This document shows positions 11,982 through 34,428 of a DNA stretch of 64,000 nucleotides, piece after piece. Source of the DNA: Neodothiora populina. Lineage: Eukaryota. The notes under the pieces were generated by a model that was not told where the DNA came from, did no database searches, and was given only the letters and a program-made list of their open reading frames with translations. The stretch covers positions 620,001 to 684,000 of the forward strand of contig NW_027191410.1 in assembly GCF_041146345.1 (NCBI RefSeq), given 5' to 3'. Numbering within the stretch: position 1 is the first letter of the stretch; every line of letters begins with the position of its first letter. Made by a program: the position numbers and the translations under genes.

Positions 11982-14074
11982 TCATTTGTGGGCTGCAGAC
12001 GGACGGATATTAGCAATCTGATGTGAAAGCATTATTTGTGGTCAATATCAGAAACTTACGGATCCCCTCGACGGGAATGGGCGTCACATCGACCACCTCG
12101 GCGGCCTTGGGCTTGTTGCTGTCCTGCTTGTCGTCCTTCATGAAGGGGAAAGTGAGAACCTCCTTGATGGAGTAGTGGTCGGCGAGGAACATGACCATGC
12201 GGTCGATACCCATGCCCCAGCCACCGGTGGGAGGCAGACCGAACTCGAGGGCCTGGCAGAAAGTCTCGTCGATCATCTGGGCCTCGTCGTCGCCTTGCTC
12301 CTTCTGGTTGGCCTGCTCCTCGAATCGCAGACGCTGGTCGAAGGGGTCGTTCAACTCGGTGTAGGCGTTGACAATCTCCTTCTTGCAGACAAAGGCCTCG
12401 AAACGCTCGCAGAGACCGGGGTTGCTGCGGTGGTACTTGGCGAGAGGGGACATCATCTGAGGGTGACCGGTGATCATGGTAGGGTTGATGCACTTCTCCT
12501 CGATGAACTCGCCGACGAGCTTGTCGAGCATGCGGGCGTTGGTCAGAGGAGGCGAGCACTGCACGTTGGTCTTCTTGAGCATGCGCTTGAGGAACTCGTT
12601 TGCCTCGGAGGTGTGGAGGGTGTCGCCAGGAGGGAACTTCTCGCCACAGGCCTCCTCGAGGGCGGGGATCATCTCGATGCGCTTCCATGGCTTGGCCCAG
12701 TTGACCTGGTAGACCTCGCCGTGCTGGGTGTGGAACTCGGTCGTGTAGCCGCCGGTGACCTCCTTGACCAGACCAGAAACGAGCTCCTCGGTCAGGTCCA
12801 TGATGTCGTAGACGTCGGCGAAAGCCTGGTAGAACTCGCAAGTGGTGAACTCGGGGTTGTGGGTCAGGTCAATGCCCTCGTTTCTGAACTGTCTGCCAAT
12901 CTCGTAGACTCGCTCGAGACCTCCGACGACAAGCTGCTTGAGGTAGAGCTCGGGGGCGATACGCATGAAGAGCTCCATGTCGAGGTCGTTGTGGTGAGTC
13001 TTGAAGGGCTTGGCGGTGGCACCACCGGCAATGGCGTTCATCATGGGGGTCTCGACCTCGATGAAGTCACGGCTGTCGAAGAAGCGGCGGACGTAGCTGA
13101 CCATCTTGGAGCGGGTGATGAAGGTCTTGCGGGTGTTGTCGTTCATGATCAGATCGAGATATCTCTTTCTGTGTCTCTGCTCCTGGTCCTTGAATCCGTA
13201 GTACTCGTCGGGCAGCTGGTGCAGACAGGGGGTCAGGAGAGTGACCTCCTGGGCGAAGATGCTCAATTCGCCGTCGTCTCTGTTCTTGGGGGCGGTGCGG
13301 CCAGGGTAACCCTTGATGCCGATAATGTCACCTCTGCGCAGAGGCTCGTGTTGCTCGGCGAAGGACCTCGAGCTGGTCGACTCTTGGGACTGGCACATGA
13401 TCTGCACTCTGGTGCCCTCGGCGCGCACATCGTAGAAGCAGAGGTTGGCGCCGGAAGAACGCTTGTTGTAGATGCGGCCGCCGATGGTGATGATCTTGTC
13501 CTTCTTGTGCTCGCCCTTCTGGAGGCTGCCGAAGTCGTTGACGAAGTTGCGCAAGTCGTAGGCGACGTGGAACTTGTGGGGGTAGGGGTTGGGGTCGTGG
13601 CTCTGGCGCAGCTTCTGGATCGCTCTGCTGCGGATCTCGAAGTATTGCTGTGAGGGAAGGTGTCAGTTGCGCTTTTCTCTCGCTGTGGCTGCACTGCCGT
13701 GATTCGATGGTGAATAAAAACATACGTTGGGGTTCAGGTGAGCCTCCTCCTCTTCTGCACTGACGGCCTTCTTCTTGGGAGGTTGGGTGGTAGTGGCTGC
13801 CTTTTCGGCCTTCTTGGCTTCCTTTTCGCGGGTCTTCTGTCTCTTCTTGACTGCAATTGGCCAAGTCAGACTCCTGATCTCTGGGGATTTATGACGGAAG
13901 CAACAACATACGCTCGCTCTTGGAGACCTGCTCGCCGGTGACATCGTCGAGGTAGGTCTTCTGCTCACCAGCGGCGGCGCTGTTGTCCTGGGTGGTGAGC
14001 TCGCCGACCTTTTCGGTGACATTGGAGACGGCGTCCTTGACCGCGTTTGCGGCAGCTTGTGCTTGTTCCGCCAT
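11982..14074 (-). CDS. KRS1: Cytosolic lysyl-tRNA synthetase (class II), 4 exons
   Basis: [60 protein letters not shown]-terminal exons at 14074 (MAEQAQ...) and ~13852; last intron ~11993-12059 gives terminal PHK*. Confidence 0.97.
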
Positions 14075-27563: not shown

Positions 27564-29176
27564 ATGATGCAGCCAGCGTCAAGTGTCTTCCGCCTGCTGC
27601 GGCAGACAGTCCCAAGGCTCGGCCAGGACGCCACCTTTGTGTGTCGTAGATGTGTACAGAGTCAAGCATCGCTTAAACAGACCCCGACGACGGTATACAA
27701 GTCTACCAAGCAGACTCCCTTCCTCCAGGCCTTCCGTTCGCCGTCACACCCGACATCAATTGGTCTCCGACACAACTCGACTTCTCCCTCACTGAGTCAA
27801 GTCGGCCAGGCACTTGGAAAGGCAGGCGCTGAGCAATCCGCGAAGAAGTCATTCTTGCCCGAGACCAGCTCCAAGTCTGTGGCATATTTCCTGCTCGGCA
27901 GCGCTGCAAGTGTCTTCGGTATAGTTGTATTTGGTGGTCTCACACGATTGACAGAATCTGGGTATGTGGCTACTGCTACCACTACTACTTGCAAGCATGA
28001 ACTGCAGGAGAATATCTGACTCATTCTTGTAGTCTGAGCATCACGGAATGGCGCCCTGTCACAGGATCATTGCCACCCACAACCACGGAGAAATGGGAAG
28101 CCGAGTTCGCGCTATACCGCGCATCGCCTGAGTTCAAGCTACTGAACTCCCGGATGGACCTGGAAGAATTCAAGCAAATCTACTGGATGGAATGGATACA
28201 CAGACTATGGGGACGTGTCGTCGGCATTTCCTTCCTGCTACCCACCATCTACTTTGTCTCACGTCGCCGCGTCTCTGCTCCGATGGCTCGCAATCTCACT
28301 GCCATCTGCGGTCTGATTGCCTTCCAGGGTTTCATCGGTTGGTGGATGGTCAAGAGTGGTCTCAAGGATGACTTGTTTGCTCCCGGCAGCCACCCTCGCG
28401 TCAGTCAATACCGCCTCGCCGCCCATCTAGGCACTGCCTTTGTGTGCTACCTGGCCATGGTATGGAACGGCATCTCCATCCTCCGTGAGCACCGCCTGCT
28501 AGCCAACCCCGCCGAATCGCAGAAGCTCCTCGCCCAGATCTCCCGACCACGCCTGAGATTCTTCCGCGGCAGCGTCGCCGCCCTCTGCGCCCTCGTCTTC
28601 GTGACAGCCATGTCCGGCGCTCTCGTTGCGGGTCTGGACGCCGGCCTCATCTACAACGAGTTTCCCTACATGGGCCTAGGACTGACGCCACCCAAGGCCG
28701 AGCTCTTCGACAAATTCTACAGCCACACGCCAGACAACTCCGACCTCTGGTGGCGCAACATGCTAGAGAACCCATCGCTCGTGCAGCTCGACCACCGAAT
28801 CCTAGCCACGACAACATTCACCTCCGTCATCGCCCTGTTCGCCTACGCGCGCTTGAACCCGTCCATGCGCGCCCTGCTGACCCGCGACGCGCAGAAAGGC
28901 GTTTTGGGCCTTGTGCATCTCGCCTCCATCCAAGTCATCCTGGGCATCAGCGCTCTGATCTACTTCATCCCGACCCCTGTCGCCTCAGCGCATCAAGCGG
29001 GCGCTCTGGCTCTGCTCACGGGCGCCACGGTGCTAGGACGCCGCGTGTGGATCTCGAAGAGAGCAGCCAAGCTTGTCGCGAAGAGATTATCCTCATCTGC
29101 GGCTCCGCTGCGTTCGAGTCCGCTGTCTAGAGGCCCGGACGCCATGTTGCGCGCGCAGACTGGTCTCGCTAACTAA
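27564..29176 (+). CDS. COX15: Heme A synthase, mitochondrial, 2 exons
   Basis: Presequence-like N-terminus; VFGGLTRLTESG|LSITEWRPVTG, FKQIYWMEWIHRLWGR, GWWMVKSGL, PRVSQYRLAAHLG, GLDAGLIYNEFP, QLDHR, ASAHQAGAL. Confidence 0.96.
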
Positions 29177-30578
29177 GCGAGCGAGCTAGCTAGTTATTGA
29201 AGGACCATGCCCCCTCCTCCTCTCTGTCTCATCTTTTTTCTTTCTACTGTATTGTATGTATATATATATACCTCGATAAATCAAACATGAAATGTTCGAA
29301 CACTGCCCTTTTCCTTCCCCTCTCCCCTGTGTTTCTAGGTCAGTAATGCTCAAAAGGCGTATAACGATTCCAACAGAGGTTATGAGACGCGTGCTGTACA
29401 CCTTATTCTTTGCAATCTCCATGGGTCAAGTAGATGGAGGGGAGGGTTCCTGGAGTACCTCATATCTAGATCGACAAGATAGATTCGTGTCGCTGTTATG
29501 TGTACTCTTCTGCTTTTTCTGCTGTTTACTTACTCGCAATGCTTGCTTGCATTCTTGCTTGATCTGGTAAATATATTTATAGATTGTATACCTGTTGATG
29601 ATCGCGTTATATACCTTTTAATGATGGCGTAACGTACCTTAGCTGTTCCAGTCTGTCAGCATGTTGAGGTGCTCATTGCATTCGTCTTGTCCGTCCAGGT
29701 ACAACTGTCTATCCATCCATCCATCCGTTCGTTCCTTCTAGAAATAACCACTGCAGAGCAGGAACTCACATGTCCAACTGTCACAGCCCTCCATCCACTT
29801 TTCTTTACCTTGCCTTGCCTTGCGTCACTTTGCTTTGCCCTACCCTTACCTTACCTTACCTTGAGCTGGAGTATTGACGCCCAAGAATCCTCGCAATGAA
29901 AGACCAGAGACATTTTTTTTAAAAGGGCAATACCAGGAAGCTGTCTAATCTCGCAAGACTACCACTAGAAGCCAGAGCAACAAGAGCAACAAGCAACAAC
30001 AGTGAAAAAGCTCTGACCCCTTTGCTTTTTCCTTTCCAAAACAGCAAGAAGAAACGGTTTAGTCGCATCCGACCATCCATCCATCAAGATATCCAACACC
30101 AAAAAAGACGAGAAAAAAGAGAAGGTGATATCCACATCCTAGATGTTCCTCCATCCCAAAGTAGAAGAGCGACAGACAAGAAAAAATTCCCCGAAATGAA
30201 AGACCCATATCCATCTCCTCGTCCTCCAACCCTCCGTCTCCTCTCCCAACTCTCTTGTGCCAGCTACAAACCCGCCGGTTAAGGCAAGGCAAGCTAAGCG
30301 CACAAGTCCACGAGAAACGCGAGACAAGATGATGAAGAGTGATGAGGAAGTCAAGGCCGGCACCAGCTGCAAACCCTTGCGGGTAAGCTATTACTCACGA
30401 CCAAAACTCCTCAACACTCGACAACACCCTTCTCGACTCAGTGAATGTGAAAGAAGAAATGGAAAAGAAAGTCCTGTTGGATTTACTTAATGGTGATGAT
30501 GATGATTGATGAGCCTCTGCTCTTGACGTATGGTGGGAAAAAGAAAAAGGCTGTTGGAAAAAAAAGTGTGTGAAGGAG

Positions 30579-30721
30579 GACAGTCGAGCCCGCAAGAGGC
30601 ACTGTCGAATTGGCCCAAACCCGCAAGAGGCGCCAGTGTTGTTGTGATGTTCCCCGATGACGATCAAGCCCGCAGGAGGCATCGTGTCTGACATGACAGT
30701 CAAGCCCGCAAGAGGCACCGT
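30579..30721 (-). repeat. Array of four bulged stem-loops, core GCC-UCYUGCG-GGY on the minus strand, in the probable 3'UTR of the Ppc89-like gene
   Basis: Plus-strand copies at 30579-30606, 30611-30635, 30660-30685, 30696-30721 share CCCGCARGAGGC; flanking stems differ in sequence but stay complementary. Confidence 0.8.
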
Positions 30722-31062
30722 ACTTTGTGTTGTTGTTGTTGTTATTGTTATGTCCGAGCAGGTGGTGACAGCTCCATGGTGCCGTAAACTGAAGCAATTG
30801 CTTGAAAAGTTCTCAAAAGCGCCGACCCAAATATGCCAGAGCAGTGCGTGGACTGATGGTTGAGAATGCTTAGGTAGGGGAACAGAGCCCTCAGAAGTGC
30901 CCGATCCAATGACCAGTAACCCAAAACCGCCAAAGAAAAAAAGAACCAAAAACTCCGTACCGTAAGCCGCTGGTTCGATAATGCGAAGACCAGGGAAGAA
31001 AACATTCATAGGGTATAGAGCGGAAAACAAGTGGTCGTAGGTATCGTGACATCATTGATGAT

Positions 31063-31818
31063 TTAGAAGAAGGTGGACATGTACTGTCCCTTCTGCTTGA
31101 GAGGAGAGCGAGCACTTACTGTCACCATGGGAGCTGCTGGGAGCTGGGGGACACACTGAGAGACGACGGCAGCGCGTCGAACGCGAGGTCTGGTGCGGTG
31201 AGTGTTGCTGTCTCTTGGGACGGTGTTGTCCTTGACATCACGTGCGACACGAGGTCTTGTCCTTGGGATGGTAATGTCCTGGGCAGAGACCTTGGCGCTA
31301 GCCTCGCGATAGTCATGAGGACGAGTGCGGGTAATGGAGATATCCTGAGCAGCGACCTTGGTGCTGGCTGCACGGAAGTCATGAGGACGAGTGCGAGCGA
31401 TGGAGATCTGCTGGGCAGGAACCTTGGAGCTGGCCTCGCGCAGGTCACGAGGACGGGTGCGGGCAATAGCGATGGCAGATGGCGAACAGTTGCCACTGAC
31501 ATCGCGTGCAGAGCCATGGATGGTCTTGGGGACCGGGGAGACGAGCTTCTCAACCTCGGCAAGTCTGCGTGGAGTGTACTCATTGCTGGAGTCGAATACA
31601 CCAGTGAAGTTGGTGTTGTCGACAAGGTAGGCTTCCTGACCGAAGTCGCTCATGCCAGTCATGTCGCTATCTTGGGTGATGTCACTGACGCCGGTCATGC
31701 CCGACTGACGTGAGTCGATGCGGAACTCGGCGGTACCGCTGACGCGAGTAGGGAGGCCAGCGAGGTCCTGCTGGGCAGGTTCGCTGTCTTGGATGGAGGT
31801 GGGACGCTGATATGCATT
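31063..31818 (-). CDS. In-frame C-terminal extension of the Ppc89-like ORF beyond the TAG (251 codons, RTRP repeats); needs editing/readthrough, or is a pseudogenised tail or separate ORF from ATG 31698
   Basis: GGT GCA TAG AAT GCA TAT CAG CGT ... TCG GGC ATG ACC is open and in frame with listed ORF 31063..31698; codon bias (C/G-ending) matches the upstream part. Confidence 0.55.
   Translation of the reverse strand, partial: NAYQRPTSIQDSEPAQQDLAGLPTRVSGTAEFRIDSRQSGMTGVSDITQDSDMTGMSDFGQEAYLVDNTNFTGVFDSSNEYTPRRLAEVEKLVSPVPKTIHGSARDVSGNCSPSAIAIARTRPRDLREASSKVPAQQISIARTRPHDFRAASTKVAAQDISITRTRPHDYREASAKVSAQDITIPRTRPRVARDVKDNTVPRDSNTHRTRPRVRRAAVVSQCVPQLPAAPMVTVSARSPLKQKGQYMSTFF
31180..31475 (-). 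repeat. ~60-bp (20-aa) degenerate tandem repeat, five RTRP units
   Basis: IAIARTRPRDLREASSKVPAQQ/ISIARTRPHDFRAASTKVAAQD/ISITRTRPHDYREASAKVSAQD/ITIPRTRPRVARD.../NTHRTRPRVRR. Confidence 0.9.
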
Positions 31819-33522
31819 CTATGCACCGCTGTCGTCGATGACGCCGCTGAAGTCACTGATCTGACTGGGCTCATCGAGGCCGCTCAACTGAGTTGTGTCT
31901 CTGTCATAAGAGGCAGCAATGTCTTGAGTGCGGGTGTGCTGCGCGAGGCTCTGCTCGGTGAGGGTAGGTCTGCTGTCATTGATGGACAGGTTGGACGAGA
32001 TGGTGATGTCGGTGCCGGTAGAGACGACACGCTGGGACTGGCCGAGCTCAGAAACTCTGTGGGCCAAAGCCACGGGATCAATGCTGATCTTTTGCAGAGT
32101 GGTCTCGAGGTCTTCGGCGGTGCCCTTCTCCTGGCTGAGGATGACATCTTCGAGGTCGTACAGCTGCTGAGAGATGTAGCGAACCTTTTGCTGGAGACGA
32201 CCGATCTTCTTGTCGACACGAGTACGCTCTCTACGCGCACCGGTGGGCTCAAGCTGGCAAAGCTTCGACATGTTTGTCTGGAGCTGATCCTTGGCAGTGT
32301 TGTACTCGATCTCGAGGTTCTGCTTGATCTTGGACAAGGCAGCAGCGGGTGACTGCGATGGACGGACGGTGGCCATGGTGTCATCGATGGTGCCATCGAC
32401 AGAGTCGTTGAGAAAGCCCATGTGGGCAGTGACATCGTTGTTTGCAACGGCAGACCTCCGAGACTTGATGGTAATGTCAGGGAGCAGAAAGTCAGATGTC
32501 ATGCCTTCCTCGACGTGACGAGTGTCATGGCCGGCTGCGGACAGGGCCTCGGCCTCCTTCCTGGCCTCCTTCTTGGCCTGTTCACGACGAGCCTTGTCGG
32601 CGAGATGGAGAAGACGCTCTGGAGAGTCCTCGGGCAACATGGCAGCGAGCTGGTCAAGAGCAGGACCGGCAAAGTTGGTGCTGTGTTCAGAGTAGGAGAT
32701 GGCATCAGATGCACGAGGAGACTGGACGCGGACGCTCTTGGCCTTGTTGGCAAGGTAAGAGGCCTCGAGGCTCTTGCGGAGATGTGAAACGGCATCTTGC
32801 TCTGGCTTGGTGACGTTGGTCAGGTCGGCAGTGATGTCAAGAGGGTCTTCCTCGGTGGTCACAGTCTTGGATGGGCCGCGGTTGTTCTGCATCAGGCGCT
32901 GGGGAGACTTGCGAGCCTTTGCAGGAGAAGTCTTGGGCAGAGCCTTGAGCTCCTTGAGCGCTTCTTGTGCGGAAAGGGGAAGATTGAAGCTCTGCAGGTC
33001 GAGCTTGGTCGAGACTTGATTGTGTCGCTGGGTGTGGACCGAAGTCTGCGAGGCCTTGCGGCTCTCCTGAGCACTGCGGAGCTGAGCGCGAAGAACAGCG
33101 TTCTCGTTGAGTGCGTCGACAAGCTTGTCGGCGGTGGAACGCGTCAGACTCTGATAAGTCTCGCGCTGTTTCTGCTCCTTCTGGAGTTGTGCGGTGAGGC
33201 CGTTGATCTGGCTCTCGTATTGTTCGAGTTGTTCATATTGGCTGATGTTCTCTGACTCGAGCCTCAGGATCTTATTCTTGGCGGCAGTGAGGTTGGCGAA
33301 CAGGCTCTTCTCCTCGCGCGGGAGGTTGAGCGTCTTGACTCCGGGCTGAGTGATGGTGGCAGTGTGGCCAGTGGAAACAAAGCGTGTGGAGGCTTTGGCA
33401 TTGCGCGCCTTGCGGCCGCCAGAGACGAGTTCGGTGATGTTGTTGAGGTCAGGGAGGTTGAAGTCGCCGGTGACGGTGTTGCCAGCAGGCACGGCGAACC
33501 TCGAAGGCATGACGGTGGACAT
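31819..33522 (-). CDS. Ppc89/Cep57-like spindle-pole-body coiled-coil protein (divergent; 567 aa up to the TAG)
   Basis: Segments I recall from fungal Ppc89 homologues: FNLPDLNNITELVSG, EEKSLFANL..KILRLE, EEGMTSDFLLPDIT, and Cep57 microtubule-binding-like TVRPSQSPAAALSKIKQNLEIE...SQQLYDLEDV; family call from memory, no HMM run. Confidence 0.72.
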   Translation of the reverse strand: MSTVMPSRFAVPAGNTVTGDFNLPDLNNITELVSGGRKARNAKASTRFVSTGHTATITQPGVKTLNLPREEKSLFANLTAAKNKILRLESENISQYEQLEQYESQINGLTAQLQKEQKQRETYQSLTRSTADKLVDALNENAVLRAQLRSAQESRKASQTSVHTQRHNQVSTKLDLQSFNLPLSAQEALKELKALPKTSPAKARKSPQRLMQNNRGPSKTVTTEEDPLDITADLTNVTKPEQDAVSHLRKSLEASYLANKAKSVRVQSPRASDAISYSEHSTNFAGPALDQLAAMLPEDSPERLLHLADKARREQAKKEARKEAEALSAAGHDTRHVEEGMTSDFLLPDITIKSRRSAVANNDVTAHMGFLNDSVDGTIDDTMATVRPSQSPAAALSKIKQNLEIEYNTAKDQLQTNMSKLCQLEPTGARRERTRVDKKIGRLQQKVRYISQQLYDLEDVILSQEKGTAEDLETTLQKISIDPVALAHRVSELGQSQRVVSTGTDITISSNLSINDSRPTLTEQSLAQHTRTQDIAASYDRDTTQLSGLDEPSQISDFSGVIDDSGA

Positions 33523-33635
33523 GATGTTTTTTGACCTAGACTCTTGAAGAGCTTTTTGTCCAAGGTCGTTTCTTGTGGCAGGCAGAGAATCAGATCTCGC
33601 GCGAGCTGCCGAGAGTGGTATTTGGGTGCGGTATG

Positions 33636-33682
33636 GAGGCTTTCAGAGGCTTTCAGAGGCTTTCAGAGGCTTTCAGAGGCTT
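33636..33682. repeat. 10-bp tandem repeat (TTTCAGAGGC)x4 just upstream of the Ppc89-like ATG
   Basis: GAGGC followed by four perfect TTTCAGAGGC copies and TT. Confidence 0.95.
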
Positions 33683-34428
33683 GTTCTGCGTCTGTTTGGA
33701 GGATCAACAAATGTCGCGCGGGCGCTACAGGAGCCAAAGCGCTGTGCAGTCGCTCACAATAGTGCTTAAAGGCTGTGGACGGGAACGGGTAATCAAGCTT
33801 GTGGCTGGATCTGGTGTTTCTGGAACGTGATTGGGTGGTTTGAGCTGAGTGTTCTGGGTGGTAAGGGTATTGTGAGATGTCTGTCGTACGGGCAACGTCG
33901 CCTTTGCTTTGTTATGGTTGGAGGGTCACATGACCGGTGGCTGACAGGGTGGCTGGAGCCACAGGGCTGACATGACTTTTCCCGAATCCGAGCTAGTCCA
34001 CATTGGTAATTGACTTACACCTCTCGCTGGACCCGGTATAGACGTTTGATCATTAAGGTAGGCACATCCCTTTCACCCTCACCAACACTTGTACAGAACT
34101 TCATACAGCCAAGTATAGCTCAAGTCAAGAAGCATGGATTTCCAAGAATGACATAATAACACAATAATGAGACATGATACACCCTGCGCTTACATGCAGT
34201 ATGCGTACATACAATGACAGCATTGGGGAAGACACGTCTAATGAATCATCATCACATCCTCTCAACATCTCCCCTTGCACGCAGCAAGTCATGATCAACT
34301 TCGTGTTATTATGCACTAAGCTAATTCGTGTACAGACACACTACTGGACTGCCAGCCAATGGACAATCAATAGACACCGGAGCCTACCAATACTCATCTC
34401 GCTCTCTAACAGCCTCGAAACACGACAC

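What the first reader, a model, noticed from the sequence alone, without database searches (positions are those of the whole stretch)
31063..33522. Ppc89/Cep57-like gene split by a single in-frame TAG in a hairpin loop: candidate A-to-I stop correction or programmed readthrough
Seen: listed ORFs 31819..33522 and 31063..31698 are one reading frame separated only by TAG 31819-31821 (GAC AGC GGT GCA TAG AAT GCA TAT CAG), giving ~819 codons if the stop is decoded. The codons after the stop keep the same C/G-ending bias. A short motif recurs on both sides (QLSGLDE, DFSGVID | GMTGVSD, DMTGMSD, NFTGVFD). The stop lies in a small hairpin, GUGCAU-AGA-AUGCAU, with the A of UAG in the loop. Established: sexual-stage A-to-I mRNA editing in Fusarium and Neurospora converts premature UAG to UGG (e.g. 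PUK1), prefers U at -1 with purines at +1/+3, and favours hairpin loops; the context here (A-U-A-G-A-A) fits. Inference: this gives a stage-specific long isoform of a spindle-pole protein. If the host is a Dothideomycete, this lies outside the lineages where I know such editing to be documented. Alternatives are ribosomal readthrough, a recent CAG>TAG or TGG>TAG nonsense mutation, or an assembly error.
Basis: partly seen in the sequence, partly recalled or inferred. Interest (0 to 1): 0.85.

Follow-up and report, generated by a model that had tools for sequence, protein, structure and literature searches.

The report
Centrosome-type fungal gene cut by one stop
A fungal gene for a Cep57-type spindle-pole protein really is interrupted by one TAG stop codon with 251 still protein-like codons behind it, and this is most likely a young truncating mutation, not programmed stop-codon recoding, which remains untested.

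Summary
On the minus strand, a 567-codon ORF (33522..31822) ends at TAG 31821..31819. The same frame stays open for 251 more codons, to TAA 31065..31063.

The tail is, or recently was, coding. Codon-usage log-odds stay positive in that frame straight after the TAG. Its 66-nt repeats differ mainly at third codon positions (pN/pS 0.35, against 1.35 and 1.90 in the other frames). The TAG ranks first of 87 comparable stops in the window for coding score on both sides.

The TAG is present in re-assembled contigs of two runs from one sample. No canonical intron spans it.

The host is a Dothideomycete: a neighbouring gene is 100% identical to a protein named from Neodothiora populina. I found no report of A-to-I mRNA editing in that class.

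The 567-aa product keeps every block shared with 131 distant homologues and ends where they end. The tail is lineage-specific. In sister motif copies the TAG aligns with Tyr codons.

The hairpin is no better than shuffled sequence, and the sequence context is almost automatic for any UAG.

Best reading: a young nonsense allele (about 0.5). Editing or readthrough together rate about 0.18 and are untested, because no RNA data or close relatives were available.

The parts
31822..33522 (-). Upstream CDS, 567 codons from ATG 33522. It holds all blocks shared with distant homologues.
   Evidence: ORF. (homology blocks at about 33495-33163 and 32841-32032, same frame, no intron needed). (codon log-odds 0.26-0.46 in frame 0 over most of the ORF, 0.10-0.17 in the last two windows before the TAG).
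32143..32373 (-). Cep57_MT_bd domain (Pfam PF06657), residues 384-460
   Evidence: E 1.4e-7, 32.3 bits against a gathering cut-off of 31.3, profile positions 1-77 of 77.
31834..31851 (-). First copy of the terminal motif (FSGVID, residues 558-563), 10 residues before the TAG
   Evidence: 35 of 88 homologues over 600 aa carry one copy of this motif (a regex written after seeing the data) 8-44 residues, median 20, before their natural stop.
31819..31821 (-). In-frame TAG (codon 568). The A that editing would target is 31820.
   Evidence: contigs of runs X1 (depth 30.9) and X2 (depth 7.74), both from one sample, span it with 0 differences.
31812..31826 (-). Small hairpin: 6-bp stem including one G-U pair, loop AGA. 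The T of TAG closes the stem and the A and G lie in the loop.
   Evidence: -4.8 kcal/mol; z -0.35; 58 of 200 shuffles fold as well.
31066..31818 (-). 251-codon in-frame tail. It is lineage-specific, hydrophilic and basic (net charge +10).
   Evidence: frame-0 codon log-odds 0.13-0.54 per 20 codons down to about 31200. (pN/pS 0.35). (composition). (no family or homologue).
31591..31698 (-). Three further copies of the terminal motif: MTGVSD 31698-31681, MTGMSD 31662-31645, FTGVFD 31608-31591
31277..31467 (-). 66-nt (22-aa) tandem repeat, 2.9 copies (ARTRPRDLREASSKVPAQQISI and variants)
   Evidence: 78% matches. (differences by codon position 4/2/9, 6/2/6 and 4/2/9).
31063..31065 (-). TAA that ends the long frame

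Best explanation
This is one gene for a Cep57_MT_bd-domain protein, presumably of the spindle pole body, in a Dothideomycete. In this lineage the gene gained a long, disordered, basic C-terminal extension: extra copies of the family's terminal [FM][ST]G[VM]xD motif, followed by 22-aa RTRP repeats. That extension was translated in the same frame for a long time. A single recent base substitution, probably Tyr TAY to TAG, created an ordinary stop 10 residues after the first motif copy. Translation now ends there. The 567-aa product keeps every family-conserved block and has a family-typical C-terminus. The 251 codons behind the stop are a still-undecayed relic inside a long 3' UTR. Shown: the TAG is in the DNA; coding signal lies on both sides; the repeat divergence looks selected in frame 0; no canonical intron spans the TAG; the conserved family parts end before the TAG. 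Inferred: that the stop is young, that it is decoded as a stop, and that its ancestor was Tyr.
For: The TAG is present with 0 differences in re-assembled contigs of two runs (X1 depth 30.9, X2 depth 7.74). Frame-0 codon log-odds continue right after the TAG (0.41, 0.35 and 0.54 per 20 codons), before the first downstream ATG at 31698. The TAG ranks 1st of 87 flanked stops in the window. The 66-nt repeats differ mostly at third positions, with pN/pS 0.35 in frame 0 against 1.35 and 1.90. In a search of 1.84 billion representatives, none of the 131 homologues has its best match beyond query residue 541. The tail alone finds nothing significant. In 28 of 29 homologues with the EETLQS anchor, the natural stop lies 21-81 residues after it; the 29th was an off-target anchor match. 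The TAG lies 95 residues after it, and the TAA 347. Motif-to-stop distance is 8-44 residues in 35 homologues and 10 here. The first motif copy with the stop lies upstream of coding-like copies, so its stop must be derived or bypassed. In the best paralogue alignment (copy 1 against copy 4, ungapped over the relevant codons) the TAG aligns with TAC, and copy 3 also has Tyr at that place. Only 53 of 2259 single-base changes in the tail would create a stop. By my rough estimate, an intact tail therefore fits an age of up to a few percent neutral divergence. Truncating a non-conserved disordered tail is the kind of nonsense allele that would be tolerated (inference).
Against: No relative or second strain could be examined, so the TAG is not shown to be private or young. 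251 codons without a second stop or frameshift is equally what a recoded stop would give. The TAG sits at the family-typical distance after the terminal motif. For a random tolerated nonsense hit in a stretch of about 270 codons that is roughly a 1-in-10 coincidence by my estimate, whereas it would be expected if an ancestral stop were being bypassed. A contig from a different study (X3) covers the site, which hints that the allele may not be confined to one culture. That contig has one mismatch of unknown position near a contig end. The Tyr inference rests on two short paralogous copies.
Confidence: 0.5

Rival explanations
1. Stage-specific A-to-I mRNA editing turns UAG into UIG (read as Trp), so a long 819-aa isoform is made in sexual tissue. 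This could be premature-stop correction, or stop-loss editing at a family-typical stop position.
For: In-frame UAG with a coding-like tail. The A is the first base of a 3-nt loop, with U at -1, G at +1 and A at +3, matching the preferences stated in PMC11156358 section 5. F. graminearum has about 71 genes needing such correction (PMC11156358 passages) and 403 genes with stop-loss sites whose extensions are disordered (PMC13123824 passages). The tail here has a disorder-prone composition. The TAG lies at the family-typical end.
Against: The host is a Dothideomycete. The passages I read place the editing in Sordariomycetes and one Pezizomycete, treat those two as probably independent origins, and report none in A. 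nidulans or B. cinerea. Three papers hold 'A-to-I', 'mRNA editing' and 'Dothideomycetes' together. In the passages I read from two of them, the class appears only as a comparison group. The hairpin is no better than shuffles (58 of 200). U at -1 and G at +1 are automatic for any UAG. Paralogue copies suggest Tyr, not Trp, as the ancestor (weak).
Confidence: 0.08
2. Programmed translational readthrough of the UAG by a near-cognate tRNA gives a minor long isoform alongside the 567-aa form.
For: The tail shows a coding signature and selection-like repeat divergence in frame. The stop lies at the family-typical C-terminal position. From recall, not from a call: near-cognate decoding of UAG can insert Tyr, which would match the paralogue consensus seen.
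Against: The context UAG-A-AU is not one of the leaky contexts I recall (UGA-CUA; UAG-CAR-YYA). No call tested this. No notable downstream structure: 103 nt from the stop give z -1.04, and 29 of 200 shuffles fold as well. Codon-usage scores in the tail as high as in the main ORF are more than I would expect from a rarely translated extension (inference).
Confidence: 0.1
3. The TAG is removed by splicing: an intron or alternative intron spans it.
For: 671 GT/GC...AG pairs of 35-400 nt span the TAG, and some of these preserve the frame.
Against: No frame-preserving candidate has a GTRNGT-type donor or a CTRAY branch motif. Of two introns inferred from sequence in this window, one shows GTATGT...CTGAC...CAG and the other, read only at its 3' end, shows CTGAC...TAG. 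The coding score does not dip around the TAG. A 2200-nt X2 contig is collinear with the genome over 30900-32114, but the kind of that run is not on record.
Confidence: 0.04
4. The tail is a separate downstream gene or product, for example from ATG 31698 (211 aa), that only happens to share the frame.
For: An ATG-initiated 211-aa ORF exists. A shared frame has a 1-in-3 chance.
Against: The coding score is already high in the 40 codons between the TAG and ATG 31698 (0.41 and 0.35). The same motif recurs on both sides of the TAG. No room for a promoter is evident (inference).
Confidence: 0.05
5. Sequence error, or a mutation that arose only in the sequenced culture.
For: Both full-coverage runs come from one sample, which may be the source of the assembly.
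Against: Two runs, re-assembled independently of the window, agree at depths of 30.9 and 7.74. A contig from another study covers the site with at most one difference somewhere near its ends. A culture-private mutation is in any case a special case of the best explanation.
Confidence: 0.05

Closest known systems
Premature-stop-correction (PSC) editing genes of Fusarium graminearum, e.g. PUK1 (PMC11156358: abstract, passages and section 5 read)
   Same: An in-frame UAG inside an otherwise intact CDS. U at -1, purines at +1 and +3, and the A in a predicted loop.
   Different: The host class has no documented editing in the papers I read. There are no RNA data. The hairpin is not better than shuffles. 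The part cut off is a non-conserved tail, not an essential domain. Paralogues suggest Tyr at the site.
Stop-loss A-to-I editing with disordered C-terminal extensions, e.g. FgDBF2 (PMC13123824: passages read)
   Same: A TAG at the family's usual C-terminal position, followed by an in-frame hydrophilic extension with a disorder-prone composition.
   Different: The extension here is 251 codons long, with a clear coding signature, duplicated family motifs and selection-like repeat divergence. The phenomenon is described for Sordariomycetes only.
Programmed stop-codon readthrough extensions (recalled: fungal peroxisomal isoforms via UGA-CUA; long conserved extensions in Drosophila)
   Same: In-frame coding signal downstream of a stop.
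   Different: The stop is UAG followed by A. No stimulatory structure was found. Conservation across species could not be tested.
Cep57_MT_bd-domain proteins of Dothideomycetes (about 900-1100 aa; UniRef names several 'Cep57 centrosome microtubule-binding domain-containing protein')
   Same: The N-terminal FxLPDLxNITELVSG block, the Cep57_MT_bd domain, the EETLQS anchor and the terminal aromatic-x-G-x-S-D motif.
   Different: Only 33-38% identity. It lacks their first roughly 220 residues, including the SIELGRG block, which tblastn did not find in the window. It has four copies of the terminal motif instead of one, plus the RTRP-repeat tail.
Ordinary nonsense (loss-of-function) alleles and young pseudogene tails
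   Same: A single stop in an otherwise open, coding-like frame, with the truncated part non-conserved.
   Different: Nothing distinguishes it, except that the stop falls at the family-typical end.

Membership tests
Pfam PF06657 Cep57_MT_bd | Domain score at or above the curated gathering cut-off | tested here: met
   32.3 bits against 31.3, E 1.4e-7, full profile 1-77, residues 384-460. The margin is narrow, but it is backed by 131 homologues, several named as such by UniRef.
Dothideomycete Cep57_MT_bd protein group (about 1000 aa) | Conserved N-terminal block FxLPDLxNITELVSG and C-terminal anchor EETLQS plus terminal motif | tested here: met
   (invariant F21, L23, P24, D25, L32 ... Y455, D459, V460)..
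Dothideomycete Cep57_MT_bd protein group (about 1000 aa) | N-terminal region of about 220 residues with the SIELGRG and RRTLS blocks | tested here: not met
   absent from the ORF; tblastn with 11 homologues finds no such block anywhere in the window.
S. pombe Ppc89 | Sequence orthology to Ppc89 | not tested
   No Ppc89 sequence was compared. PMC11321043 (passages) states that Ppc89 appears to have no direct sequence homologue outside Schizosaccharomyces.
Fungal A-to-I premature-stop-correction or stop-loss editing site | In-frame UAG with U at -1 and purines at +1 and +3 | tested here: met
   Only the +3 position is not automatic for a UAG (preferences).
Fungal A-to-I premature-stop-correction or stop-loss editing site | Edited A in a hairpin loop | tested here: inconclusive
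   the loop position is right, but -4.8 kcal/mol is matched by 58 of 200 shuffles, and the hairpin is lost in the 61-nt fold.
Fungal A-to-I premature-stop-correction or stop-loss editing site | A>G in sexual-stage RNA but not in DNA | not testable with these tools
   One search lists no run on record as RNA.
Fungal A-to-I premature-stop-correction or stop-loss editing site | Host has the editing machinery (Tad2/Tad3 with an Ame1-type cofactor) and belongs to an editing lineage | not testable with these tools
   no genome is held for this window. The host class is Dothideomycetes, for which the passages read report no editing.
Programmed translational readthrough | Protein-coding signature in frame downstream of the stop | tested here: met
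Programmed translational readthrough | Stop codon and extension conserved in related species | not testable with these tools
   No close relative was found.
Programmed translational readthrough | Leaky stop context or stimulatory downstream RNA structure | tested here: not met
   z -1.04. UAG-A is not a leaky context that I recall (recall only, not a call).

The most novel reading that the evidence does not exclude
A Dothideomycete keeps a UAG at the ancestral end of its Cep57-type spindle-pole protein. It bypasses that stop, by sexual-stage A-to-I editing or by programmed readthrough, to make a second isoform with a 251-residue basic repeat tail. This would be the first such recoding in the class, with an unusually long, selected extension.
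Probability: 0.15. Interest if true: 0.7.

Novelty: new member of a known kind. Interest (0 to 1): 0.3.

Why it matters
If the stop is an ordinary young nonsense allele, the case matters only for annotation. The locus is a real gene with a 567-aa product. It should not be dropped or 'spliced around', and its tail records a lineage-specific extension of a spindle-pole protein caught just after truncation.

If the stop is bypassed, this would extend stop-codon recoding to a fungal class where the review I read says it is still undetermined which lineages edit (PMC11156358). It would also give a clean, single-site test locus. The locus is cheap to settle: one amplicon across 31820 from DNA and cDNA, plus the same codon in a few relatives.

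Tried and rejected
RNA evidence: no RNA holder is listed for this stretch, so nothing can be said on expression, editing or splicing. The four runs laid were contigs only.

Own genome: none is held. The Tad2/Tad3/Ame1 complement and a genome-wide census of interrupted genes could not be done.

Close relatives, none found by any route:
- The search for homologous proteins with the 819-aa read-through (450-1434 aa) found nothing.
- The same tool with the 251-aa tail (138-440 aa) found nothing.
- The representative search gave only hits of 42% identity or less.
- The metagenome scan by peptide patterns gave 66 pattern matches, 0 confirmed.
- The metagenome scan with an exact 28-nt pattern gave 0 matches.
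- Neither the exact 567-aa nor the exact 211-aa ORF is in the protein collection.
- Earlier findings of this scan: nothing.

Tail function: no Pfam family, and the ESM Atlas gave no usable hit.

Intron across the TAG: rejected for lack of donor and branch signals.

Code change (TAG as a sense codon): rejected. 16 ORFs of 300 or more codons are open under the standard code, 6 of them ending in TAG, and only this one TAG has coding signal on both sides.

'TAG is an old natural stop and the tail was never translated': rejected because.

Run X3: its contig over 31813-32016 has one mismatch whose position was not listed. The contig ends coincide with an ATGCAT site and a CCGG site in the sequence, which suggests a restriction-based library. 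I could not look again.

Small shares in runs X3-X7 say nothing about habitat.

I did not open any paper's supplements. The editing-site tables of the Fusarium papers might refine the context preferences.
Full report
**1. What is there**

On the minus strand, an ORF starts at ATG 33522 and runs 567 codons to TAG 31821..31819. The same frame then stays open for 251 codons, to TAA 31065..31063. Residues 384-460 match Pfam Cep57_MT_bd just above its curated cut-off (32.3 against 31.3 bits, E 1.4e-7). The 251-aa tail matches no family.

**2. Is the TAG real?**

- Logan contigs of run X1 (depth 30.9, spanning 30900-33665) carry the window sequence with 0 differences.
- Contigs of run X2 (depth 7.74, spanning 30900-32114) do the same.
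- Both runs come from one sample, which may be the source of the assembly. This rules out a consensus artefact but not a mutation private to that culture.
- A contig from another study (X3, a coded other organism) covers 31813-32016 with one mismatch. Its position was not listed because it lies near a contig end, and the TAG is 6-8 nt from one end.
- No RNA holder is listed, so editing, splicing and expression are untested.

**3. Is the tail coding?**

Yes, or it was until very recently.

- Codon-usage log-odds were trained on 15 other ORFs of 300 or more codons in the window. Frame-0 scores are 0.26-0.46 per codon over most of the main ORF (0.10-0.17 in the last two windows before the TAG) and stay at 0.18-0.39 for about 170 codons after the TAG. 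The other two frames are mostly negative, at best about zero.
- At 20-codon resolution the scores right behind the TAG are 0.41, 0.35 and 0.54. The signal therefore starts before the first downstream ATG at 31698.
- Among 87 stops in the window that have 60 open codons on each side, in all six frames, this TAG ranks first for coding score on both sides (0.305 and 0.318). The next-ranked case sits inside a canonical in-frame intron.
- The three 66-nt repeat copies at 31277-31467 differ at codon positions 1/2/3 by 4/2/9, 6/2/6 and 4/2/9. This gives pN/pS 0.35 in frame 0, against 1.35 and 1.90 in the other frames. The three pairs are not independent.
- So the tail evolved under protein-level constraint in the frame of the upstream ORF.

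**4. Is the TAG spliced out?**

Probably not.

- Of 671 GT/GC-AG pairs of 35-400 nt that span the TAG, no frame-preserving pair has a GTRNGT-type donor or a CTRAY branch motif.
- Two introns inferred from sequence in this window show canonical signals: one reads GTATGT...CTGAC...CAG, and the other, read only at its 3' end, reads CTGAC...TAG.
- The coding score does not dip at the TAG.

**5. Host**

- Of the 18 top homologue clusters I looked up, 10 carry an organism name. All ten are Dothideomycetes by my knowledge of these names.
- The convergent neighbour gene (COX15, 28154-29173) is 100% identical to an NCBI protein named from Neodothiora populina. The next hit is at 83%.
- The taxonomy tool places that species in Dothideales, Dothideomycetes.

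**6. Comparison with the family**

- A search of 1.84 billion representatives gave 131 hits at E up to 0.001. 23 are at 1e-10 or better, none at 1e-30, and identity is at most 42%.
- Many of these homologues are about 900-1100 aa. They align in two blocks, query residues about 10-130 and about 260-495.
- No best stretch reaches beyond query residue 541.
- tblastn of 11 homologues against the window finds nothing in the tail and no upstream exon.
- In 28 of 29 homologues that carry the EETLQS-type anchor, the natural stop lies 21-81 residues after it. The 29th was an off-target anchor match. Here the TAG lies 95 residues after the anchor and the TAA 347.
- 35 of 88 homologues over 600 aa carry a terminal motif, [WF][ED]G[LFIV]S[DE]-like, exactly once in their last 120 residues, 8-44 residues (median 20) before the stop. 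The other 53 do not match my regex, which I wrote after seeing the data.
- The query has four copies. FSGVID lies 10 residues before the TAG, and MTGVSD, MTGMSD and FTGVFD lie after it.
- The 567-aa product is therefore a complete family member at its C-terminal end. Everything behind the TAG is lineage-specific.
- The query lacks the family's first roughly 220 residues.

**7. Where did the TAG come from?**

The motif copy that carries the stop lies upstream of copies that look coding. Its stop must therefore be derived from a sense codon, or be bypassed.

- In the best paralogue alignment (copy 1 against copy 4, ungapped over the relevant codons), DDSGA-TAG-NA lines up with DSSNE-TAC-TP.
- Copy 3 reads FGQEA-TAC.
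- This weakly points to a Tyr codon as the ancestor, one third-position change away. It does not point to TGG or CAG.

**8. The editing signals**

- The review PMC11156358 (section 5 read in full) gives the preferences: U at -1, A or G at +1 and +3, and hairpin loops. The site fits. However, U at -1 and G at +1 hold for every UAG.
- The hairpin (-4.8 kcal/mol) is matched by 58 of 200 shuffles. It is not in the minimum-energy fold of the 61-nt context, though it is in that of the 121-nt context.
- Passages of the same review and of PMC10041177 say the editing is known in Sordariomycetes and in Pyronema confluens, probably by independent origin. They also say it was not found in Aspergillus nidulans or Botrytis cinerea.
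- Three papers hold 'A-to-I', 'mRNA editing' and 'Dothideomycetes' together. I read passages of two of them, and there the class appears only as a comparison group.
- PMC13123824 (passages) describes 403 stop-loss edited genes in F. graminearum with disordered extensions. That is the closest analogue if the TAG here were an old stop.
- For readthrough, the 103 nt from the stop show no unusual structure (z -1.04). UAG-A is not a leaky context that I recall.

**9. Weighing**

The data establish one gene, one real TAG and a tail that was translated in frame. They do not show whether the TAG is young or maintained.

For a young nonsense allele:
- The truncated part is non-conserved.
- The paralogue copies hint at Tyr.
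- The host class has no known editing.
- The RNA signals are weak.
- Nonsense variants that remove a non-conserved tail are plausibly tolerated (inference).
- Only 53 of 2259 single-base changes in the tail make a stop. By my rough estimate, an intact tail is unremarkable up to a few percent neutral divergence.

For recoding:
- The tail is fully intact.
- The TAG sits at the family-typical distance behind the terminal motif.
- The site is covered by a run from a second study.

My estimates are: nonsense allele about 0.5, readthrough about 0.10, editing about 0.08, separate product about 0.05, error or culture artefact about 0.05, and splicing about 0.04.

**10. Verdict**

The locus is a cheap test case. 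The codon in relatives, and DNA-against-cDNA sequencing at 31820, would settle it.

Noticed in passing
window 31063-33522: Neither the 567-aa nor the 211-aa ORF is in the 15-billion-protein collection, and no near-identical protein turned up. The annotated protein of the neighbouring gene from the same species is present. The public annotation may have no protein model for this locus.
   Followed up: partly
window 33523-33700: A 10-nt tandem repeat (GAGGCTTTCA on the plus strand, 4.7 copies, 33636-33682) lies just upstream of the ATG. The X1 contigs break inside it. The reading frame is open for 40 more codons upstream of ATG 33522, and one homologue's tblastn match extends to 33591.
   Followed up: no
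window 33522 and upstream: The gene lacks the N-terminal region of about 220 residues (SIELGRG and RRTLS blocks) present in its Dothideomycete homologues. tblastn finds that region nowhere in the window.
   Followed up: partly
window 31813-32016: The X3 contig (other study, depth 281.7 against 3 for its other piece) ends at an ATGCAT site and a CCGG site. This suggests a restriction-based reduced-representation library. It carries one mismatch at an unlisted place near a contig end, and the TAG is 6-8 nt from one end.
   Followed up: no
window 29177-31062: A 1.9-kb gap separates the convergent COX15 gene (27564-29176, plus strand, one intron) from the TAA of the long frame. It holds no convincing ORF, only low-complexity stretches (for example an AAC-type run near 30730) and a junk-like 204-aa ORF at 30395-31009.
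   Followed up: no
window 31198-32352, plus strand: Long antisense open frames lie opposite the gene (233 and 212 codons around TGA 31711-31713), with positive codon scores. This is a by-product of the gene's codon bias and not a second gene.
   Followed up: partly
window 13600-13725, minus strand: An in-frame TGA (13663-13665) with coding signal on both sides lies inside a canonical intron (GTATGT...CTGAC...CAG). It served as a useful control for the scan method.
   Followed up: yes
window 31110-31125, minus strand: A consensus-like donor GTAAGT lies 19 codons before the TAA of the long frame, but no branch motif or nearby acceptor follows. The coding score fades from about 31200, so the true end of the former CDS is uncertain.
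   Followed up: partly
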